In this document: piece after piece, positions 35,299-64,000 of the stretch
Layout: each line of letters begins with the position of its first letter
Position numbering within the stretch: the first letter of the stretch is position 1
IMG/VR virus record: IMGVR_UViG_3300031972_002122
Location: 64,571 to 128,570 of that record
DNA length: 64,000 nt
From: a virus
Strand: one strand, 5' to 3'
The notes under the pieces: model-generated
Seen by the model: the letters and a program-made list of their open reading frames with translations, nothing else
The model's database searches: none
What the model was told of the DNA's origin: nothing
Program-made: the position numbers and the translations under genes

Positions 35299-35877
35299 AT
35301 GGAAAGATTAAAACTTAAAAAGTTATTAGACTCTGGTAAAAGTACTAGAGAGATTGCAGAGTTAATTGGAAGGGGGCAGACGACTGTTAGATATTGGATT
35401 AAGAAGCATGGGTTGCGATGTAAGTATCATGAGATTAATCGTCAACAGCGGATAAGTGATATTTGTGAAGCTGTTGCCAAGTCCACCTCATACTCAGAGG
35501 TATGTAGGAAGTTGAAAATTCCTCGTTCTGGAAATTCATATCAGAATATGAGATCGGTGATTGAGAGATTGAGTTTAGATGTCTCCCATTTTACAGGGCA
35601 GCGAAAATATCTAGAGTCTATAAAATTAACTCCATATGATGTATTAATATATGATCGGTTGGATGGTAGGCGGGAACGTACTATAGTGTTGCGTAACGCG
35701 TTAACTGAACTTGGTGTTGATGTGTGTAGATGTAGCCTGTGTGGGTTAGATTCTTGGTTGGGAAAACCACTTGGAATGCATATTGATCATATAGATGGTG
35801 ATAGATTAAATAATATTCGTGATAATTTGAGAATTTTATGTCCAAATTGTCACAATCAAATAACGTATAACAAATGA
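35299..35877 (+). CDS. HNH homing endonuclease with N-terminal HTH
   Basis: CSLCG, HIDHIDGDRLNN..DNLRILCPNCH. Confidence 0.9.
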   Translation: MERLKLKKLLDSGKSTREIAELIGRGQTTVRYWIKKHGLRCKYHEINRQQRISDICEAVAKSTSYSEVCRKLKIPRSGNSYQNMRSVIERLSLDVSHFTGQRKYLESIKLTPYDVLIYDRLDGRRERTIVLRNALTELGVDVCRCSLCGLDSWLGKPLGMHIDHIDGDRLNNIRDNLRILCPNCHNQITYNK

Positions 35878-36576: not shown

Positions 36577-36651
36577 GCGGCACACGCATAAGAGGTGGTG
36601 CACCTGCCTTCCAAGCAGGAATTAGATTCGGTTCGATCCCGAAGTGCCGCA
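36577..36651 (+). tRNA. tRNA-Gly(TCC)
   Basis: GCGGCAC/GTGCCGC; CCTGC-CTTCCAA-GCAGG. Confidence 0.9.
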
Positions 36652-36875: not shown

Positions 36876-36947
36876 GTCTCTAAAGCATTTATGGATGATG
36901 TCCACCTTTGTACCGTGGGGAACGGGATTCGATTTCTCGTAGAGACT
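36876..36947 (+). tRNA. tRNA, probably Thr(TGT)
   Basis: GTCTCTA/TAGAGAC; CCACC-TTTGTAC-CGTGG with one mismatch; anticodon register somewhat ambiguous. Confidence 0.65.
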
Positions 36948-36997
36948 CAACAATTCGATTCCAGTGTTTGATTCGTTTTTTGTATACTTATATATGT

Positions 36998-37654
36998 ATG
37001 AAATGGACAGAAACTGAATTGAACGAAGTGATTAATCTTATCAAAAGTGGTAAGACTTATGGTGAAATATCTAACATTGTGGGTAGAAGTAAATCTTCTA
37101 TCAAAAATAAACTAGGGCGTAGCAACGAAAATTATAAAAAGTATGTTAAGTGCGACGTGCTTTTATGTATTCAGTGTGATAATGTTATTAAAAATTTTGG
37201 TATTAAATTTTGCTCTAGATCATGTGCTACTACTTATAACAATTTACTACGAGGAAAAAATCCACGTAAGTGTAAGTGTTGTGGTGGTGAATATTTCGGA
37301 AGAGCTAAAAAATACTGCAGTATTTATTGCTTTCATAAAAGTCAGTGGATGGCAATCGTGAATTTAATTGAATCTGGTGATACTAGCCTTTCTAATCGAC
37401 GTTATAAAAAATATTTAATTTATAAATATGGTGAACAATGTATGGAATGCGGTTGGGATAAAATCAATCCATATAGTGGAAATATACCAATTGAATTAGA
37501 ACATATCGATGGTAATTCTAATAATAACTCTTTGGATAACTTAAAATTATTATGTCCTAATTGTCATTCACTCACACCAACATACAAAGCATTAAATATT
37601 GGTAATGGTCGACATAACCGCATGGTGAGATATAAATCTGGTAAGAGTTTTTAA
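36998..37654 (+). CDS. HNH endonuclease with HTH and Cys-rich repeats
   Basis: FCSRSC, YCSIYC, ELEHIDGNSNNN..NLKLLCPNCHSLT; start moved to MKWTE because the longer ORF overlaps a tRNA. Confidence 0.9.
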   Translation: MKWTETELNEVINLIKSGKTYGEISNIVGRSKSSIKNKLGRSNENYKKYVKCDVLLCIQCDNVIKNFGIKFCSRSCATTYNNLLRGKNPRKCKCCGGEYFGRAKKYCSIYCFHKSQWMAIVNLIESGDTSLSNRRYKKYLIYKYGEQCMECGWDKINPYSGNIPIELEHIDGNSNNNSLDNLKLLCPNCHSLTPTYKALNIGNGRHNRMVRYKSGKSF

Positions 37655-37750: not shown

Positions 37751-38014
37751 ATGAGAAAATTAGAAGGCACAACAGCATGTAAAATGAGAGATGAACTTTG
37801 GTCTAAGCGGAGTAAAACGTTTACACCTACTGTGATTACCAACAGGTTGACTAAGATTGGAATACCAGCGTGGTTACGGTCACAGATCATTCAAATGGTA
37901 CGGTACAACGAAATGGATCGATGTACAGATGCAATTGAGCAGGCGATGTACCAGTCTGTATGTAATTTGATCGTCAAGGAATTGATGGATGCTGAGAAAA
38001 AGGTATTTGATTAA
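37751..38014 (+). CDS. hypothetical protein
   Basis: ORF after a sigma70-like promoter. Confidence 0.6.
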   Translation: MRKLEGTTACKMRDELWSKRSKTFTPTVITNRLTKIGIPAWLRSQIIQMVRYNEMDRCTDAIEQAMYQSVCNLIVKELMDAEKKVFD

Positions 38015-38022
38015 AACAATAT

Positions 38023-38092
38023 AGCACAAGTGCGCGGGACACAGGACGGACTCATATTCTGTCTTCGCTCGGATCGTTACCGAGTTGTGCTA
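38023..38092 (+). tRNA. tRNA(CAT), Met or Ile2, with non-canonical D and T loops
   Basis: AGCACAA/TTGTGCT; ACGGA-CTCATAT-TCTGT; CTCGG-ATCGTTA-CCGAG. Confidence 0.7.
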
Positions 38093-38107
38093 CTGATTAG
38101 AATAAAA

Positions 38108-38206
38108 ATGAAAGAAAGAACTGAAATATCGAGTAGTAGTTCCAGATACTGGAAGGTGAACCTAGCAGGGTCTAGGACTGGATTGCTAATCCATGGGGTC
38201 GGGTAA
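38108..38206 (+). CDS. Ser-run uORF (MKERTEISSSSSRYW...) reading into tRNA-Ser
   Basis: TCG AGT AGT AGT TCC at 38129-38143, 7 nt before the tRNA. Confidence 0.72.
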   Translation: MKERTEISSSSSRYWKVNLAGSRTGLLIHGVG

Positions 38207-38238
38207 AACTGACTGGGCTTCGATTGCTCCTCCTTCCG
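38151..38238 (+). tRNA. tRNA-Ser(GCT)
   Basis: GGAAGG/CCTTCC-G; TGGA-TTGCTAA-TCCA; long variable arm. Confidence 0.82.
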
Positions 38239-38245
38239 CTTAATT

Positions 38246-38335
38246 GGTAAGTTAAGCAGTCCCATGGAGGGGCGACTAGTCTTGAAAACTAGGTAGCAGG
38301 TCATGCTGCTCGGGGGTCGGTTCCTCAACTTACCG
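38246..38335 (+). tRNA. tRNA-Ser(TGA)
   Basis: GGTAAGT/ACTTACC-G; CTAGT-CTTGAAA-ACTAG; long variable arm. Confidence 0.85.
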
Positions 38336-38343
38336 CAATTTAT

Positions 38344-38417
38344 GGTCAAGTGGCTGAGTGGATGTAGGCATCTGATTGCAAGTCAGGTTTACGGGGGTTC
38401 GAATCCCTCCTTGACCT
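38344..38417 (+). tRNA. tRNA-Cys(GCA)
   Basis: GGTCAAG/CTTGACC-T; TCTGA-TTGCAAG-TCAGG. Confidence 0.92.
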
Positions 38418-38430
38418 CAACGAAAAAATT

Positions 38431-38484
38431 ATGAAAGTAATAAATACATACAATCGATTACGACTGCTACTCTTACCTGAGTAG
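38431..38484 (+). CDS. Leu-run leader peptide (MKVINTYNRLRLLLLPE)
   Basis: TTA CGA CTG CTA CTC TTA; followed by a hairpin and four tRNA-Leu genes. Confidence 0.78.
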   Translation: MKVINTYNRLRLLLLPE

Positions 38485-38605: not shown

Positions 38606-38666
38606 CCGATCGGGTACACGGTATACCCGATTGGGTACACGGTATACCCGATTGGGTATATCCGAT
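38606..38666. repeat. 21-bp tandem repeat (~2.9 copies), each copy a hairpin
   Basis: CCGATYGGGTACACGGTATAC x2 plus a partial third copy. Confidence 0.85.
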
Positions 38667-38937: not shown

Positions 38938-39669
38938 ATGTGTACATGTATTGATATAAACGAGCTCCAATTGATTGAGGATGGATCACAACCAGACTTC
39001 AATCTGGATAATGAATTTGCCGAAGCTAATAGAAAATACTTCAAGGGCATGCTTAAGAAGATTCCTATGGAATATAAACACCTGACTGGTAAACTAGGGT
39101 TAGTTAAAGCTAAAGTGCGTAGAGATAGCTCTAAACGGATCGTGAAAGCATTCCCAGTAGTACTGCAGATGACTGATCAATTCAATTACACCAGAGAACA
39201 ATTCTTGAGTACATTCTTACATGAACTTTGCCACTTATTCATGCTGCAGGATGCTGGTAAGTATTCGTGGAGTGGTGGGTATCATGGTAGAGAATGGCAG
39301 AAACTAGCTGATACCGTATCTAAGAAATCTGGTGTACCTATAACTAAGGACGAACATACTGGTAAATATGACACTAAAGACCTACCATCACCAGTAGTAG
39401 CGTTTGCCAAATTTAGTGGTGGGCATATTAGTATCGCATATACAACCAAAAGTATATGGAGTCGGCGAGATGATGAGTATATAGATTGGTTAACCGCCAC
39501 CGCTAAAGGGAAGCAGTGGGTGGTCTTCACAACCAGAGATGGTCGAATAACAAACTTCGCTGCAAAATCTATAAAGAGACCCACGTTCTATAAAATCGAT
39601 CAGGACATTGTTACTGACATGATGAAGAACAAATCCGAAGAAGTTATATTAACCAATAATCATGTATAG
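38938..39669 (+). CDS. SprT-like zinc metalloprotease
   Basis: FAEANRKYF, TFLHELCH (HExxH), YHGREW. Confidence 0.8.
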   Translation: MCTCIDINELQLIEDGSQPDFNLDNEFAEANRKYFKGMLKKIPMEYKHLTGKLGLVKAKVRRDSSKRIVKAFPVVLQMTDQFNYTREQFLSTFLHELCHLFMLQDAGKYSWSGGYHGREWQKLADTVSKKSGVPITKDEHTGKYDTKDLPSPVVAFAKFSGGHISIAYTTKSIWSRRDDEYIDWLTATAKGKQWVVFTTRDGRITNFAAKSIKRPTFYKIDQDIVTDMMKNKSEEVILTNNHV

Positions 39670-43141: not shown

Positions 43142-43235
43142 GGTGTGCGAGTCGGATATGGTTTTTTGCCGAGGCAGGTTGTGACCCTGTTGTAGAAATT
43201 TCTACATGCGAGTTCGAATCTCGTCGTACACCCCA
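43142..43235 (+). tRNA. tRNA-His(GTG) with long variable arm
   Basis: G-1:C73, CCA; GCAGG-TTGTGAC-CCTGT; TGTAGAAATTTCTACA extra hairpin. Confidence 0.88.
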
Positions 43236-43351: not shown

Positions 43352-43469
43352 GGGGGAGATTTATCTCACTCTTTTAGGTGATCTCCTTATGGTAGTAGTA
43401 AATAGAGTTACTTCGGTTAACATTTGTACTTGAAATTCAAATTACTTGGTTCGATTCCAAGCTCCCCCA
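43352..43469 (+). ncRNA. 118-nt tRNA-like RNA (TGA loop) with enlarged D region
   Basis: GGGGGAG/CTCCCCC-A, CTTGG-TTCGATT-CCAAG, TTGTA-CTTGAAA-TTCAA. Confidence 0.65.
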
Positions 43470-44119: not shown

Positions 44120-45030
44120 TGGGAGGTGGAACGTATAATTTTAATGCTAGAGCTACGTCTTCGGTTACTAAAGGTTTTAACAAGGCAACTGTTGATTCGT
44201 TGGATACTGTATTTAAGCAGCAACGACAACGCCGAGTGCATGATAGTCTCGACCCACGCGGTGTGGTTATTCGGGAATCTAGGGATGGTGAGGATCACCC
44301 AGAATCATTAGCTATTTTAGTTGGTATAGATGTCACAACATCAATGGGTAACGTCCCAGTATTGTTAATACGTGACGGACTACCCAATATGATACAGCGT
44401 ATATTCGAGGAGGGTATCGCTGATCCACAGGTGGCGTTCATTGCCATCGGTGATCATGAGTGTGATAACTATCCATTACAGATCGGGCAGTTCGAATCTT
44501 CGGATCAGCTACTAGATGAGTCGTTGACCAACACCTATATTGAAGGTGGTGGTGGTGGCAATGGTGGTGAGAGTTATTTGTTAGCTTGGTACCACGCCGC
44601 GATGCACACGTCAATTGATTGTTTTGAAAAGCGCGGACAGAAAGGGGTTCTTATAACAATTGGTGATGAGCCATGTCTTAATAAGGTTTCTGGATCAGTA
44701 TTAGCTAGGTTGTATAATTTACAATCTGAACTAGATTATTCAGCAGCAGAATTGTTAAAACTTGCTTCGGAGAAGTATGATGTGTATCATATCAATGTCG
44801 GATCGACGTATTCTGGGTATAGATCGAGTACTAAGAATTATTGGAAAGAGTTGCTTAGTGATCATTTCATCGACGCTAAAAGTCATGAAGATATTCCTAG
44901 AATTGTTGCGGAGCTGACGTCTAAGAGTTATAGTGGTACTCGGCAGAAAGTTGAGACTGACTATGCTGAGGCTTATAATGGATCACCTACAGACGTGGAT
45001 GATATTAAAGAACCTAAAATCACATTATAA
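44119..45030 (+). CDS. vWA (MIDAS) domain protein
   Basis: DVTTSMG (DxTxS), AIGDHECD, EGGGGGNGGESY, ITIGDE. Confidence 0.85.
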   Translation: MGGGTYNFNARATSSVTKGFNKATVDSLDTVFKQQRQRRVHDSLDPRGVVIRESRDGEDHPESLAILVGIDVTTSMGNVPVLLIRDGLPNMIQRIFEEGIADPQVAFIAIGDHECDNYPLQIGQFESSDQLLDESLTNTYIEGGGGGNGGESYLLAWYHAAMHTSIDCFEKRGQKGVLITIGDEPCLNKVSGSVLARLYNLQSELDYSAAELLKLASEKYDVYHINVGSTYSGYRSSTKNYWKELLSDHFIDAKSHEDIPRIVAELTSKSYSGTRQKVETDYAEAYNGSPTDVDDIKEPKITL

Positions 45031-46178
45031 TGAATGTAAGTATTGTCACTGGAGTTGGATATGGCGACGAAGGTAAAGGCGTAACCACTAAGTGGCTATG
45101 CGAGCAATTGTTATCTGGGAATGATGATGTACATGTGATGGTAGTCCGATTTGGTGGTGGAAATCAAGTCGGACATACCACCATGGTTGATGATTTCATT
45201 CACACACATCATCACACTGGTGCTGGAACCTTAGTAAATGTACCAACGTTCTATTCTAGATTCTGTACTGTAGACCCAATTAACACGGTATCTGAGATTG
45301 AGTTCTTAACCCAGAAGGGATTTACACCACGTAATATGTATGACCCACGGTGTATGATTGTAACTCCACTCGATGTGATTTACAATCGAATGCGTCATGC
45401 TAAAACACAACACGGAAGTGTTGGGGTGGGGTTTGGTGCAACTATTGCTAGAAATGAATCACACTACCGACTATATGTTGCCGACATTGCAACTCGGGAG
45501 ATATTCATCCAGAAGTGTAAGGGTATCCAGCAATATTATAACAGCCTAGGTGTGGATTTTGATCTAGATTGTGAGGCGTTTTACATCGACTGTATTAACT
45601 TTTTAGATATTGTGGAGGTAAGCAATCTAAATCTGGAGATAACACGTTACATTGGCTCAAAATCGTCCCATATAGTATTTGAGGGGCATCAAGGGGTATT
45701 GCTAGATCAGGAATATGGTGTATTTCCCCATGTTACTAGATCAAAGACTACATGTAAGAATGCATTCACGATACTTGAAGAAGAGAACCTTAACGGGATA
45801 TGTGAGCATATAAATCAATTCATGGTAACGCGAGCATATCATACACGTCATGGTAATGGGTATTTTGAAGAGGAGGATATTTTACTGACAAATACTGAGT
45901 TTGAAACTAATAAATTCAGTGAGCATCAGGGAGCATTTAAAACAGCTCCACTTAACAAAGCATTATTGACTAGGGGAGTACTTTGTAATCTTATGGATGA
46001 GTCTGACTTAGGAAATATTAAAAGACATCTAGTAGTTACGTGTTGTGATCAAGTAGAGTCTTATGAGGACGTCATTGAATATATTTCTGAAACCACCCAA
46101 CTACTGGACACTCTGTGTATTAATGACCATCCATCAGGAAACATTAGACTATATGCCAAGGAAGAAAAAGATAACTAA
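45030..46178 (+). CDS. purA: adenylosuccinate synthetase-like protein (divergent PurA family)
   Basis: GYGDEGKG, RFGGGNQVGHT, HGSVGVG, FEGHQGVLLDQEYGVFPHVTRS, TRHGNG. Confidence 0.85.
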   Translation: MNVSIVTGVGYGDEGKGVTTKWLCEQLLSGNDDVHVMVVRFGGGNQVGHTTMVDDFIHTHHHTGAGTLVNVPTFYSRFCTVDPINTVSEIEFLTQKGFTPRNMYDPRCMIVTPLDVIYNRMRHAKTQHGSVGVGFGATIARNESHYRLYVADIATREIFIQKCKGIQQYYNSLGVDFDLDCEAFYIDCINFLDIVEVSNLNLEITRYIGSKSSHIVFEGHQGVLLDQEYGVFPHVTRSKTTCKNAFTILEEENLNGICEHINQFMVTRAYHTRHGNGYFEEEDILLTNTEFETNKFSEHQGAFKTAPLNKALLTRGVLCNLMDESDLGNIKRHLVVTCCDQVESYEDVIEYISETTQLLDTLCINDHPSGNIRLYAKEEKDN

Positions 46179-51398: not shown

Positions 51399-52577
51399 AT
51401 GAAACAAGTAATAAGTAGTCAGAAGAAGCCAATTAAGATGTGGCTAGATAATCTGGAGCATGGAGCGATCCAGCAAGCTAAGAACTTGGCGAACTTGCCA
51501 TTCTTATTTAAGCATGTTGCGATTATGCCAGACTCACATCAGGGTTATGGTATGCCGATCGGTGGTGTACTAGCTACTGAAGGTGTGGTTATACCGAATG
51601 CTGTCGGTGTTGACATTGGATGTGGGATGTGTAGTGTTAAGACTAGCATCAAAACGGAAGAGATTGATAAAATTGACTTCTCAAAGTTAATGAACTTGAT
51701 CCGTAAGAAGGTTCCAGTGGGATTTAACCATCACCAGCGAAATCAGAATTCCAAGTGGATGCCTGATGGGATGGATGATGTACCAAAGACTGGTAACATT
51801 CGGAAGGAGTTGAGTAGTGCGCTGAAGCAAGTAGGCACACTCGGTGGTGGTAATCACTTTATAGAGATACAAGCTGGTGATGATGGCTATGTGTGGATAA
51901 TGATTCACTCAGGGTCACGTAACTTAGGTTATAAGACAGCTAGACACCATAACACGTTGGCTAAAGAGATCAATAAGAAATATTGGTCTGAGGTTCCACC
52001 ATCGTGGGATTTAGCATTCTTACTGATCGACTCGCAGGAGGGACAGGATTATATAAGTGAGCTTAATTATGCGACGAAGTTTGCGCTAGCAAACCGTGCA
52101 CATATGATGGAAGCTGTTAAAGAATGTTTAATTGATGTAGCGGGATGGGGTGTTACGTTTGATCCGATGATCAACAAGCCACATAACTTTGCGGAGATGG
52201 AACATCACTTTGGTAAGAATGTTATGGTACACCGTAAGGGTGCTTGTCGGGCTAGGAATGGTGAAGTGGGTATGATACCCGGCTCTCAAGGAACGCACTC
52301 GTATATCGTGAAGGGTAAGGGTGAGGAAAACTCATTCCAGTCTTGCTCACACGGTGCTGGTAGAGTGATGGGACGTAAAGCCGCTCAGAGAAGTTTAGAT
52401 TTTGACACTGAGGTTAAGCGGTTGAATGACATGGGAGTGTACCACACATTAGAAACGGTAAAGCAATTAGATGAAGCTGCAGGGGCATATAAAGATATTG
52501 ACCTCGTGATGGAAAACCAATCTGATCTAGTAGAAATATTAGTGAAGCTGAAGCCATTAGCAGTAGTAAAAGCATAA
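51399..52577 (+). CDS. rtcB: RNA ligase RtcB
   Basis: MPDSHQGYGMPIGG, VGVDIGCGM, GTLGGGNHFIE, HSGSR, HN, HRKGA, SCSHGAGR, DEAAGAYKDI. Confidence 0.96.
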   Translation: MKQVISSQKKPIKMWLDNLEHGAIQQAKNLANLPFLFKHVAIMPDSHQGYGMPIGGVLATEGVVIPNAVGVDIGCGMCSVKTSIKTEEIDKIDFSKLMNLIRKKVPVGFNHHQRNQNSKWMPDGMDDVPKTGNIRKELSSALKQVGTLGGGNHFIEIQAGDDGYVWIMIHSGSRNLGYKTARHHNTLAKEINKKYWSEVPPSWDLAFLLIDSQEGQDYISELNYATKFALANRAHMMEAVKECLIDVAGWGVTFDPMINKPHNFAEMEHHFGKNVMVHRKGACRARNGEVGMIPGSQGTHSYIVKGKGEENSFQSCSHGAGRVMGRKAAQRSLDFDTEVKRLNDMGVYHTLETVKQLDEAAGAYKDIDLVMENQSDLVEILVKLKPLAVVKA

Positions 52578-61412: not shown

Positions 61413-64000
61413 ATGGTAGTAAATAGTCGAGGTAGTGGAGATGGGTATGGATATGGTAGTGGAATTGGAGCTGGGAATGGGAGTGGTGATGGGTATGGTA
61501 GTGGAATTGGAGCTGGAAATGGGTGTGGGCGTGGCGATGTTCGTAGTATATGGTGTGACGAGGTAGATGGTTGTGGTAGTGGTCATTGGTATGAGGTTGG
61601 ACGTGGAAGTGGAGATGGTTGGGGTTATGGAGGTGGCTTTGGTGGTGGGTGTGGATACGGGCGTGGAAATGGCTCTGGGTATAAATATGGAAAGGGAAAG
61701 GGCTAAAATCAGTAAATTATGAGAGTATATAGTTACGGAGATGGTGATGGGCATGGACTTATAACTGCACGTGGCGATGGGGGTGGATGTGGAAGTGGAG
61801 TTGGAACTGTATATGGGTATGGATATGGATATGGATGTGGGGATGGACGTGGAAATGAATATGGTCGTGGAAATGGATATGAACTTGGAAATGGTCGTGG
61901 AAAAGGTCGTAGTCATGGAGATGGCGATGGGTATGGATATGGTTGTGGGGGTGGAGAGGGCTAAAATCAAAAAATATGAGAGTATATAGTTACGGTAGCA
62001 GTGATGGGCATGGATTTGAAAGTGGAGAGGGCTGGGGAGCTGGGGATGGAGACGGACGTGGAAATACATACGGTGGTGGGGGTTCGCTTGGTGGGCGTGG
62101 AGATGGGTGTGGGCGTGGAAATGAATATGGGAGTGGTGATGGGAGTGGTGATGGGCGTGGAAATCGCGGCGGAACTGGAAATGGAAGTGGCGGATGGTGA
62201 TGGTCGTGGATATGAAAATGGTTAAATCAGAAAATTATGAGAGTAGATAGTTACGGGATTGGAACTGGTCGTGGAAATAGTCGTGGTCATGGGGATGGTC
62301 GTGGATATGGAACTGGACGTGGGAATGGTTATGGACACGGACGTGGGTGTGGTCGTAGTCATGGTCGTGGATATGGAAGTGGACATGGAACTGGAAATGG
62401 CTCGGGTATTGGAACTGGAAATGGTCGTGGAACTGGGAATGGCTCGGGTACTGGAACTGGAACTGGAAAGGGTTAAATCAGAAAATTATGAGAGTAGATA
62501 GTCAAGGTGGTAGTGTTCGTGGGGATGGTCATGGATATGGAACTGGAAGTGGGAATGGTTATGGACGTGGATGTGGGGAAGGTTATGGTTTTTCGTATGG
62601 AGATGGAAGTGGTCGTGGGGATGGTTATGGTTTTAATGGAAAAGGGAGTGGACGTGGTCATGGCGATGGATGTGGAGATGGAAATGGAAATGGTTAAATC
62701 AAAAAATTATGAGAATAGATAGTCAAGGTGGTGGTGATGGTCGTTGGTATGGTCATGGGCATGATCGAGGACGTGGGCAAGGACGTGGGAGTGGGTGTGG
62801 GGCTAGATTTGGAACTGGAGGTGGGCGTGGAATAGATCATGGACATGGGATTGGGTATGTTTATGGGGATGGTCGTGGATATGGAACTGGACGTGGGAAT
62901 GGTTATGGACACGGACGTGGGTGTGGGTATGGTCGTGGGGATGGGAGTGGTCGTGGAGATCGTGATGGAACTGGAAAGGGCTAAAATTAAAAATTATGAG
63001 AGTAAATAGTTACGGAGCTGGAGATGGGTATGTGTATAGAGACGGGAGTGGCGATGGCAGTGGAACGTCGAGTGGTTGTAAATATGGAATTGGAAGTGGA
63101 TATGGTGATGGAGATGGACGTGGAGATGGGTATGGAAGGGGGTTTGGGCGTGGAGCTGGAACTGTTCATGGGTATGGACATGGCGATGGCAGTGGGTGTG
63201 GAATTGGGTATGGACGTGGAAGTTGGTATGGAACTGGACTTGGTTAAATCAAAAAATTATGAGAGTATATAGCAGTGGATATGAAGATGGGTATGGACGT
63301 GGAGATGGTTGGGGAAGTGGAAGTGGAAGTGGAGCTGTCTGGGGAAGTGGAAATGGAAGTGGGCATGGAACTGGAAATCGCGATAGATATGAACTTAAAC
63401 GTGGGTATGGACGTGGATATGGACGTGGAGATGGAGATGGGTGTGGAAGTGGAGCTGGATATGGACATGGCGATGGCGATGGAGCTGGAACTGGAAAGGG
63501 CTAAAATCAGAAAATTATGAGAGTATATAGTTACGGGGTTGGACATGGAAGTGGACGTGGAGATGGAAGTGGATATGGATATGGACGTGGAAATGGAAGT
63601 GGATATGGACATGGCGATGGCGATGGAGCTGGACGTGGAGATGGATATGGAACTGGACGTGGGAATGGTTATGGACACGGACGTGGGTGTGGGTATGGTC
63701 GTGGGGATGGGAGTGGTCGTGGAGATCGTGATGGAACTGGAAAGGGCTAAATCAGCAATTATGAGAGTGTATAGTTATGGAGATGGGAATGGATATGGAA
63801 GTGGAAATGGATATGGAAGTGGACGTGGATATGGATATGGAAGTGGACGTGGATATGGAATTGGATATGGACGCGGAGATGGATATGGAAGTAGACATGG
63901 AAATGGACGTGGACATGGAAGTGGATCGGGAAGTGGACGTGGATAATCAAAATCAGCAATTATGAGAGTGTATAGTTATGGATCGGGAAGTGGATATGGA
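61413..64000 (+). repeat. tandem array of at least 11 Gly-X repeat mini-ORFs (starts 61413, 61719, 61976, 62237, 62488, 62709, 62996, 63259, 63517, 63761, 63962), truncated by the window end
   Basis: conserved junction GG(C/T)TAAA(A)TCA(G/A)AAAATTATGAGAGTA(T/G)ATAGT; peptides MRV(Y/D/N)S..(GX)n, often ending GKG. Confidence 0.9.

What the first reader, a model, noticed from the sequence alone, without database searches (positions are those of the whole stretch)
38108..38335. Ser uORF: five consecutive Ser codons from both codon boxes before tRNA-Ser(GCT) and (TGA)
Seen: TCG AGT AGT AGT TCC mixes AGY and TCN codons, matching the two isoacceptors downstream, which argues for selection at the peptide or decoding level rather than a simple repeat. 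TTCCAG (38140-38145) pairs with CTGGAA (38149-38154), which includes the first tRNA bases. The ORF continues into the tRNA.
Basis: partly seen in the sequence, partly recalled or inferred. Interest (0 to 1): 0.78.

Follow-up and report, generated by a model that had tools for sequence, protein, structure and literature searches.

The report
Serine-codon leader before phage tRNA-Ser
An uncultured marine phage has a tiny reading frame with five serine codons in a row that ends seven bases before its two serine tRNA genes; it is one of six such codon-matched frames in the phage's tRNA block, so it may tune tRNA maturation to how well serine codons are read, but nothing has been tested at the bench.

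Summary
ATG 38108 opens a 32-codon frame with TCG AGT AGT AGT TCC (38129-38143). It ends 7 nt before an (8/4)-type tRNA-Ser(GCU), followed by tRNA-Ser(UGA); standard tRNA finders miss both. This is the only run of 5 or more Ser codons on the + strand of the 128.6-kb contig (site p=0.0012).

It is not isolated. An ORF-based permutation test finds cognate-rich ATG frames before 6 of 22 tRNA clusters (0 of 300,000 permutations), with nothing on the antisense strand or downstream. Five control phages gave p=0.037-0.48.

A longer pairing of the leader with the tRNA D-arm is predicted. A ribosome stalled on Ser codons 1-3 raises the acceptor-stem probability from 0.34 to about 1.0. Three of 21 unrelated leaders mask this tRNA equally well.

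There is no terminator, so this is not a classical attenuator. No relative and no RNA data were found.

Best reading (0.45): a translated Ser-decoding sensor that gates folding and maturation of tRNA-Ser. Earlier notes of this scan report like elements in this genome and in other phages. Four literature searches found no published account.

The parts
38023..38093 (+). tRNA-like gene with anticodon CAT. Its 3' end lies 15 nt before the leader ATG.
   Evidence: Not called at default settings. ARAGORN -ps95 calls tRNA-Met(cat). Cloverleaf fold -25.7 kcal/mol, z=-2.69.
38094..38150 (+). Spacer between tRNA(CAT) and tRNA-Ser(GCU). Its 5' part is A-rich and predicted unstructured, and it holds the leader start and the Ser run.
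   Evidence: Sequence; the MFE leaves 38093-38130 unpaired.
38108..38206 (+). Leader frame of 32 codons, MKERTEISSSSSRYWKVNLAGSRTGLLIHGVG. Its last 18 codons and its stop lie inside tRNA-Ser(GCU).
   Evidence: The start context is A-rich with second codon AAA, like the starts of this genome, which show little Shine-Dalgarno signal.
38129..38143 (+). Five consecutive Ser codons, TCG AGT AGT AGT TCC.
38140..38154 (+). The 3' arm covers leader -2, -1 and tRNA bases 1-4.
   Evidence: It is the MFE element while the transcript ends at 38156 (-5.9 kcal/mol). Each pair has probability <0.01 in the full precursor.
38137..38180 (+). Predicted extended hairpin: leader 38137-38156 pairs with tRNA D-arm and anticodon-stem bases 38161-38180. 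It overlaps Ser codons 3-5.
   Evidence: It is the MFE at transcript end 38180 (-16.1 kcal/mol in all). Own leader plus the first 30 tRNA nt gives -8.18 against -2.82+-2.78 for other leaders, z=-1.93, rank 3 of 22.
38151..38239 (+). tRNA-Ser(GCU). It has an 8-bp acceptor stem (one U.U), a 4-bp T stem, a long variable arm and discriminator G.
   Evidence: ARAGORN -ps85 drawing; fold.
38246..38335 (+). tRNA-Ser(UGA), with an 8-bp acceptor stem, a 4-bp T stem and a long variable arm.
   Evidence: Rfam tRNA-Sec alignment, 34 bits; ARAGORN -ps90; fold z=-2.66.
38344..38418 (+). tRNA-Cys(GCA), 8 nt after tRNA-Ser(UGA), in the same tight cluster.

Best explanation
The 32-codon frame 38108-38206 is translated on the unprocessed multi-tRNA transcript, and its five Ser codons report how fast Ser codons are being decoded.

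AGU x3 is read by the adjacent tRNA-Ser(GCU). UCG is read by tRNA-Ser(UGA). UCC is the rare fifth codon.

The stretch under Ser codons 3-5 and just after them (38137-38156) can pair with the 5' half of tRNA-Ser(GCU), and this competes with the cloverleaf. A ribosome paused on the first Ser codons covers that stretch, so the tRNA folds and can be matured.

When Ser decoding is fast, ribosomes run on into the tRNA body, as far as the stop at 38204. Behind them the leader is free to pair with the tRNA's 5' half, so less tRNA-Ser matures.

This makes a negative feedback on Ser-tRNA supply that acts on tRNA folding and processing, not on transcription termination.

Shown: the sequence layout, its statistical rarity, and the predicted alternative folds. 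Inferred: translation of the frame, stalling, the direction of control, and the effect on maturation.
For: 1. Rarity. This is the only run of >=5 Ser codons in the + frames of the contig. The site p is 0.0012, and Ser ranks 1 of 20 amino acids. It is the only one of 93 triplet-repeat registers with synonymous but different flanking codons. None of 77 metagenome loci and none of 79 viral loci (49 distinct) with a tandem Ser(GCU)-Ser(UGA) anticodon-loop pattern has >=5 Ser in 6 codons upstream.

2. It is one of a set. In the frame-agnostic test of 22 tRNA upstream regions, label permutation gives p=0.0052. In the ORF-based cluster test, 6 of 22 clusters (Tyr, Ser/Cys, Leu, Glu, His/Pro/Gln, Lys) have binomial p<0.03; 0 of 300,000 permutations reach the observed score, and 0 of 20,000 without the Ser cluster. 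Internal controls are flat: antisense p=0.96, downstream p=0.28. Five control phages (T5, KVP40, XacN1, Atu_ph07, S-CRM01) give p=0.13-0.78 in the frame-agnostic test and 0.037-0.48 in the ORF test.

3. All 5 runs with cognate p<0.1 lie within 15 codons after an in-frame ATG with no stop between. The background for intergenic codon positions is 19%.

4. Leaders pair with their own tRNA 5' ends. Permutation p=0.0006 for the duplex test and 0.0014 for the leader plus the first 30 tRNA nt. Controls give 0.37-0.98.

5. Model of the Ser precursor. P(acceptor stem) is 0.34 with no ribosome, 0.99-1.00 with the A site on Ser codons 1-3, and 1.00 for the tRNA alone.

6. Four of the five codons are readable by the two downstream anticodons under standard wobble rules (established knowledge). 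AGT is the phage's commonest Ser codon, 26%.
Against: There is one sequence only. No relative was found, so there is no test of conservation or of synonymous change.

Without Ser, the frame-agnostic codon test is only p=0.074, and 16 of 22 upstream regions show nothing.

The RNA part is weak for Ser:
- the whole-tRNA interaction energy is ordinary (z=-0.27, rank 4 of 22; overall p=0.117);
- 3 of 21 unrelated leaders mask this tRNA as well as its own does;
- the first-10-nt measure puts Ser at rank 7.

At equilibrium only Ser and Glu, of the six leaders, show gating. With the A site on the 5th Ser codon the model blocks the acceptor stem (0.01).

UCC is rare (5%) and poorly read by a UGA anticodon. 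There is no Shine-Dalgarno sequence, although the genome as a whole has little.

The ORF-based test was designed after I had seen the data.
Confidence: 0.45

Rival explanations
1. Chance. An (AGT)3 slippage repeat in an inter-tRNA spacer happens to be flanked by two more Ser codons and to follow an ATG. It has no function.
For: Short triplet repeats are common: 56 loci on the + strand. There is a single genome and no conservation data. 16 of 22 tRNA upstream regions show no cognate signal. The hairpin is no better than shuffles. The window was picked by a reader who was looking for such patterns.
Against: The site p is 0.0012, and the run is unique in 128.6 kb of + frames. Its flanks are unique among 93 repeat registers. 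It belongs to a set that 0 of 300,000 permutations reach, with flat antisense, downstream and foreign-phage controls.
Confidence: 0.2
2. The frame is translated and matters, but by another logic. Ribosomes running into the tRNA might simply destroy or delay that copy whatever the Ser supply. Or translation might protect the long untranslated tRNA transcript (for example from Rho or from nucleases). The Ser codons would then only slow the ribosome.
For: The frame reads 55 nt into the tRNA, as do the Tyr and Glu frames. The geometry differs among the six leaders, and four of them show no equilibrium gating.
Against: It does not explain why the codons match the downstream tRNAs in six units, nor the leader/tRNA complementarity.
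Confidence: 0.15
3. An RNA-only element. The leader is an anti-tRNA or processing determinant that pairs with the 5' half of the precursor (setting RNase P or RNase E access), and the codon content is incidental.
For: Leader/tRNA 5'-half complementarity is enriched across this phage, also at tRNAs with no cognate frame (Asp, Trp, Arg 55732), and is absent in five control phages.
Against: It does not predict five Ser codons from two codon boxes in one frame behind an ATG, nor the ORF-level enrichment that is specific to the sense strand.
Confidence: 0.1
4. A classical leader-peptide transcription attenuator, with a terminator and antiterminator as in trp, his or leu.
For: A short frame with tandem regulatory codons lies directly upstream of the controlled genes.
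Against: There is no terminator-like site on the + strand between 37000 and 38985. The hairpin is followed by GGTGAACC, not by a U run, and only 7 nt separate the run from the tRNA. Rfam finds no leader family at E<=10.
Confidence: 0.03

Closest known systems
Leader-peptide transcription attenuators of amino-acid operons (trpL, hisL, pheL, leuL, thrL, ilvL). Named from established knowledge; PMC3082878 on pheL was seen only in a search listing and abstract.
   Same: A short upstream frame carries a run of codons for one amino acid. The position of the ribosome on that run decides which downstream RNA pairing forms.
   Different: The controlled genes are tRNAs, not biosynthetic enzymes. There is no intrinsic terminator. 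The competing structure is the tRNA's own 5' half, so the output would be folding and maturation. The frame also runs into the controlled gene.
pheM leader of the pheST (phenylalanyl-tRNA synthetase) operon. Recalled, not checked in a paper here.
   Same: A part of the translation apparatus is controlled by a leader frame rich in its own cognate codons.
   Different: pheM works through a terminator and controls a protein gene. Here the product is the tRNA itself and no terminator is present.
Ribosome-stalling leaders that remodel RNA without termination (ermC and cat leaders). Recalled.
   Same: A stalled ribosome on a short leader opens or closes a downstream helix.
   Different: Those leaders sense a drug through the nascent peptide and expose a ribosome-binding site. 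This one would sense tRNA supply and free a tRNA acceptor/D-arm.
T-box riboswitches
   Same: They sense tRNA status and carry a cognate codon in the leader.
   Different: T-boxes bind tRNA directly without translation, have a conserved T-box sequence and a terminator or sequestrator. No Rfam T-box match at E<=10 in 37950-38450.
(8/4) tRNA-Ser of phage tRNA clusters (Mukai et al., Nucleic Acids Res 45:2776, PMC5389517; abstract and passages read)
   Same: Both tRNA-Ser genes here have an 8-bp acceptor stem, a 4-bp T stem, a long variable arm and G73. The paper reports such tRNA-Ser in phage tRNA gene clusters, next to (8/4) tRNA-His.
   Different: This concerns the tRNA bodies only. The passages I read say nothing about upstream frames.

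Membership tests
Leader-peptide transcription attenuator | Short translated frame with tandem codons for the sensed amino acid | tested here: met
   ATG 38108 and five Ser codons at 38129-38143. Translation itself was not shown.
Leader-peptide transcription attenuator | Intrinsic terminator (G+C hairpin plus U run) between the leader and the controlled genes | tested here: not met
   No + strand terminator-like site between 37000 and 38985; no U run after the hairpin.
Leader-peptide transcription attenuator | Mutually exclusive RNA pairings, one of them covered by the stalled ribosome | tested here: inconclusive
   The leader/D-arm pairing competes with the cloverleaf: -34.6 against -34.2 kcal/mol, and P(acceptor) rises from 0.34 to about 1.0 under a ribosome mask. 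But 3 of 21 foreign leaders do the same, and Ser is only rank 3 of 22.
Leader-peptide transcription attenuator | Controls genes for synthesis of the sensed amino acid | tested here: not met
   What lies downstream is tRNA-Ser x2, tRNA-Cys and tRNA-Leu x4.
T-box riboswitch | Match to the T-box leader model (specifier loop, T-box sequence) | tested here: not met
   Rfam scan of 37950-38450 at E<=10 lists no T-box.
(8/4) tRNA-Ser (allo-tRNA group) | 12-bp acceptor branch split 8/4 instead of 7/5 | tested here: met
   ARAGORN drawing of Ser(gct): 8 acceptor pairs (one U.U) and a 4-bp T stem. Ser(tga): GGUAAGUU/AACUUACC and a 4-bp T stem in the tRNA-Sec alignment.
(8/4) tRNA-Ser (allo-tRNA group) | Long variable arm and G73/U73, the SerRS identity elements | tested here: met
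   Variable-arm helices in both folds and G after the acceptor 3' strand. The identity rule is from PMC5389517 passages. Charging was not tested.
Cognate-codon leader frames of this phage's tRNA block | ATG frame starting within 120 nt upstream of a tRNA cluster and enriched in that cluster's amino acids | tested here: met
   Ser/Cys cluster binomial p=0.0076. It is one of 6 of 22 clusters below 0.03.

The most novel reading that the evidence does not exclude
The phage runs a network that senses tRNA supply. At least six tRNA genes or clusters (Tyr, Ser, Leu, Glu, Pro/His/Gln, Lys) each sit behind their own small translated frame written in their own codons. The ribosome's pace on that frame decides whether the leader grips the tRNA's 5' half or lets it fold and mature. 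The Ser unit samples both Ser codon boxes in one frame, for its two isoacceptors. This would be leader-peptide control turned on the tRNAs themselves, acting at RNA folding and processing with no terminator.
Probability: 0.4. Interest if true: 0.9.

Novelty: new variant of a known kind. Interest (0 to 1): 0.7.

Why it matters
Why phages carry tRNA genes, and how they express them, is still debated. Control of tRNA output is usually placed at promoters or at processing enzymes. A leader frame that measures decoding of a tRNA's own codons and gates that tRNA's folding would be a direct feedback on tRNA supply. It would extend the attenuation principle to a new class of target and to a new output, maturation instead of termination. 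It would also give a compact, testable module for synthetic control of tRNA levels. In addition, this case shows that (8/4) tRNA-Ser genes, and the signals around them, are invisible to default tRNA finders.

Tried and rejected
Relatives.
- Megablast and blastn of the region against GenBank phages: no match.
- Exact 42-mer of tRNA-Ser(GCU) in IMG/VR: none.
- Neighbouring proteins (an 87-aa ORF, the SprT-like protein, RtcB) in IMG/VR: none.
- SprT-like protein by tblastn in GenBank phages: none.
- The SprT-like protein has 4 homologues at 41-55% identity, plus the window's own protein, in the big protein collection. The alignment found nothing in IMG/VR or in metagenome contigs.
- TerL has homologues at 69-82% identity in ENA, Logan and JGI, but IMG/VR holds only relatives at <=58%. 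Of 5 long contigs among these, 3 had 4-5 tRNAs and 2 had none, so they were of no use.
- A gapped pattern of the two Ser anticodon loops found 119 metagenome and 115 viral stretches, with 80 loci returned from each. None is related to this locus (best alignment scores 46 and 39 of 185), and none has a Ser run.
- The 58-aa frame 38030-38203 searched against 1.84 billion representative proteins gave 2 weak hits (E=3.7e-05 and 4.4e-04) to proteins of 1154 and 639 aa. I read these as low-complexity matches, not relatives.

Sequencing runs. Three DNA runs of one study were listed and no RNA holder. Laid contigs were identical where they covered the stretch. One is probably the source and the others are fragments, so they give no independent variation and no expression data.

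Classical attenuator and T-box readings: rejected.

Shine-Dalgarno test: uninformative, because this genome shows little SD signal.

Whole-tRNA interaction energy: not significant.

PHROG and Pfam scans of neighbouring proteins and two tblastn searches served only to identify the phage.

Supplements of PMC5389517 were not seen; they may list related phage tRNA clusters.

Full report
WHAT THE WINDOW IS.
The window is bases 64571-128570 of a 128,570-base IMG/VR virus record, about 73% complete. It encodes terminase, portal, major head and tail-sheath proteins, so it is a large tailed phage. The runs that hold it are labelled seawater metagenome. Almost all long frames and all tRNA genes lie on the + strand. 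GenBank phages hold nothing similar at the DNA level. The best protein matches there are about 33-35% identical.

THE OBSERVATION.
- ATG 38108 opens the frame.
- TCG AGT AGT AGT TCC lies at 38129-38143, in frame with that ATG.
- TTCCAG 38140-38145 and CTGGAA 38149-38154 form the hairpin arms.
- The frame stays open until TAA 38204-38206.

ARAGORN at default settings (26 genes) and Rfam at gathering score (20 matches) call no tRNA between 36948 and 38344. With relaxed ARAGORN thresholds three more genes appear:
- tRNA(CAT) at 38023-38093 (-ps95);
- tRNA-Ser(TGA), drawn by ARAGORN as 38251-38336 (-ps90);
- tRNA-Ser(GCT) at 38151-38239 (-ps85).

Rfam aligns 38246-38334 to the tRNA-Sec model at 34 bits, below the cut-off of 47. 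It gives 38151-38239 nothing at E<=10. All three stretches fold as cloverleaves.

Both Ser genes have an 8-bp acceptor stem, a 4-bp T stem, a long variable arm and G73. This is the (8/4) tRNA-Ser shape that Mukai et al. reported in phage tRNA clusters (PMC5389517; abstract and passages read), and it explains why standard finders miss them. No other Ser tRNA was called in the window, so these two are the only candidate Ser tRNA genes I found. The 118-nt tRNA-like stretch at 43352-43469 noted by others was not checked.

The leader therefore lies in a 57-nt spacer inside a tight tRNA cluster: CAT, spacer, Ser, Ser, Cys, then a Leu leader and four Leu genes.

IS THE RUN MORE THAN CHANCE?
In the three + frames of all 128,570 bases there are four runs of >=4 Ser codons, and only this one reaches 5. 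The - strand has 9 runs of >=5, but nothing here is read from it.

I scored the best 6-codon window in any frame within 60 nt upstream and compared it with every position of the genome. For Ser this gives p=0.0012, and Ser ranks first of 20 amino acids at this site.

The genome has 56 loci (93 registers) where a triplet is repeated three times. Only this one has both flanking codons synonymous with the repeat but spelled differently.

Loci elsewhere with a tandem Ser(GCU)-Ser(UGA) anticodon-loop pattern never show it. Among 77 usable metagenome loci and 79 usable viral loci (49 distinct), none has >=5 Ser in 6 codons, and the maximum is 4.

IS IT PART OF A SYSTEM?
Earlier notes of this scan claimed eight such frames in this window, so I tested all tRNAs with one rule.

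Frame-agnostic test, 22 tRNAs with a spacer of >=30 nt:
- Cognate p<0.05 for Tyr, Ser, Leu(38522) and Glu; 0.09 for Lys. The other 17 have p>0.49.
- Label permutation gives p=0.0052. Without Ser it is 0.074.
- Other window sizes gave 0.0015-0.011.

All five low-p runs lie within 15 codons after an in-frame ATG with no stop between. The background is 19% of intergenic codon positions.

ORF-based, cluster-level test (ATG frames of >=8 codons starting within 120 nt upstream; binomial enrichment of the amino acids of the following tight tRNA cluster):
- Six of 22 clusters fall below p=0.03: Tyr 0.029, Ser/Cys 0.0076, Leu 0.012, Glu 0.0013, His/Pro/Gln 2.8e-5 and Lys 6.5e-4.
- No permutation of 300,000 reaches the observed score. 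None of 20,000 does when the Ser cluster is left out.
- The antisense strand of the same regions gives p=0.96, and the 120 nt downstream give p=0.28.

Five well-known tRNA-rich phages served as controls, using 40 kb around each tRNA region.
- Frame-agnostic test: T5 0.17, KVP40 0.78, XacN1 0.26, Atu_ph07 0.67, S-CRM01 0.13.
- ORF test: T5 0.45, KVP40 0.48, XacN1 0.25, Atu_ph07 0.037, S-CRM01 0.074.

I designed the ORF test after seeing the data, so its p-value overstates the case. The size of the effect and the flat controls make chance an unlikely account of the set as a whole.

THE RNA PART.
The 65-nt fold is -5.9 kcal/mol with z=-0.33. A duplex test against shuffled leaders gives p=0.013, and against other tRNAs' leaders z=-1.69.

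In the full precursor 38093-38241 each pair of the hairpin has probability <0.01. The minimum-energy fold (-34.6 kcal/mol) is not the cloverleaf (-34.2): leader bases 38131-38151 pair with the D-arm region and with the 3' side of the tRNA. P(acceptor stem) is 0.34.

As the transcript grows, the 6-bp hairpin is the MFE element at end 38156. By end 38180 it is replaced by an extended hairpin, 38137-38156 with 38161-38180.

Across the phage, leaders pair with the 5' ends of their own tRNAs more than with others. Permutation p is 0.0006 for the duplex test, 0.0014 for the leader plus the first 30 tRNA nt, and 0.015 for the loss of acceptor-stem probability. The five control phages show none of this.

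For Ser itself the evidence is borderline:
- with the first 30 nt, z=-1.93, rank 3 of 22;
- with the first 10 nt, rank 7;
- whole-tRNA interaction energy z=-0.27;
- own leader gives P(acceptor) 0.29 against a median of 0.97 for 21 other leaders, but 3 of those 21 are as low.

HOW IT MOST LIKELY WORKS.
I masked the bases a stalled ribosome would cover (A-site codon -18 to +13). This raises P(acceptor) from 0.34 to 0.99-1.00 for Ser codons 1-3 and to 0.80 for codon 4. For codon 5 it drops to 0.01, because the mask then covers the tRNA's first bases.

The coherent reading is as follows. Slow Ser decoding parks a ribosome on the anti-tRNA stretch, so tRNA-Ser(GCU) folds and can be matured. Fast decoding lets ribosomes run into the tRNA as far as the stop at 38204, and frees the leader to trap the 5' half.

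There is no promoter-like or terminator-like site on the + strand between 37000 and 38985. Control would therefore act on folding and processing, not on termination.

The leader start is A-rich with second codon AAA, which fits this genome's weak Shine-Dalgarno use. AGT is the commonest Ser codon of the phage (26%), TCG is 16% and TCC 5%.

Translation of the frame, stalling, and the direction of control are all inferred. Of the six leaders, only Ser and Glu show clear gating in the equilibrium model, so either the mechanism is not uniform or it is kinetic.

WHAT IS KNOWN.
In principle the element works like the leader-peptide attenuators. It fails their defining terminator test and controls a different class of gene. 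Rfam finds no T-box or leader family here.

Four full-text searches listed no paper whose title or abstract start points to leader-peptide control of tRNA genes; none of the listed papers was opened.

Notes of this scan report like elements in this window and in other phage genomes. I treated those as leads. I tested the ones in this window with my own statistics. I could not test those in other genomes.

VERDICT.
- The Ser run is the strongest single member of a non-random set of cognate-codon frames before tRNA genes in this phage.
- The specific hairpin is weak.
- The classical attenuator reading fails.
- Conservation and expression remain untested, because no relative or RNA data could be reached.

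I rate the gating mechanism at 0.45 and chance at 0.2.

Noticed in passing
38023-38093: A tRNA-like gene with anticodon CAT and an unusual T loop (ATCGTTA). Default ARAGORN and Rfam miss it. It folds as a cloverleaf (z=-2.69) and ends 15 nt before the Ser leader ATG.
   Followed up: partly
43143-43235: ARAGORN draws tRNA-His(GTG) with an 8-bp acceptor stem, a 4-bp T stem and a long variable arm. It sits in the same window as the (8/4) tRNA-Ser genes, the pairing that PMC5389517 reports for tRNA clusters of alphaproteobacterial phages.
   Followed up: no
38606-38658: A 21-nt unit is repeated 2.5 times (96% matches) in the spacer between tRNA-Leu(AAG) and tRNA-Leu(CAA).
   Followed up: no
36225, 36337, 36725, 55732 (tRNA starts): Leaders of Trp, Asp, Gly(GCC) and Arg(TCG) tRNAs also pair unusually well with their own tRNA 5' parts or lower the acceptor-stem probability, yet they have no cognate-codon frame. 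The complementarity may be a wider feature than the frames.
   Followed up: partly
51399-52577; 45030-46178; 35299-35877; 36908-37654; 38938-39669: Inside the tRNA block lie an RtcB RNA ligase (Pfam E=6.9e-111), an adenylosuccinate-synthetase (PurZ-like) gene, two HNH endonucleases and a SprT-like protein (PF10263).
   Followed up: no
36577-36651: Rfam calls a tRNA here (45.2 bits) that ARAGORN misses. By its loop CTTCCAA it is tRNA-Gly(TCC).
   Followed up: partly
62001-64000: GC rises to 0.49 and GC skew to 0.685 at the window end. The - strand there reads long Ser-codon runs, so the + strand carries a G-rich repeat.
   Followed up: no
L097-L100 (Atu_ph07, S-CRM01 tRNA regions): In the ORF-based cognate test these two control phages gave marginal p-values of 0.037 and 0.074, with 1 and 2 clusters below 0.03. 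Weaker versions of the same design may exist there.
   Followed up: no
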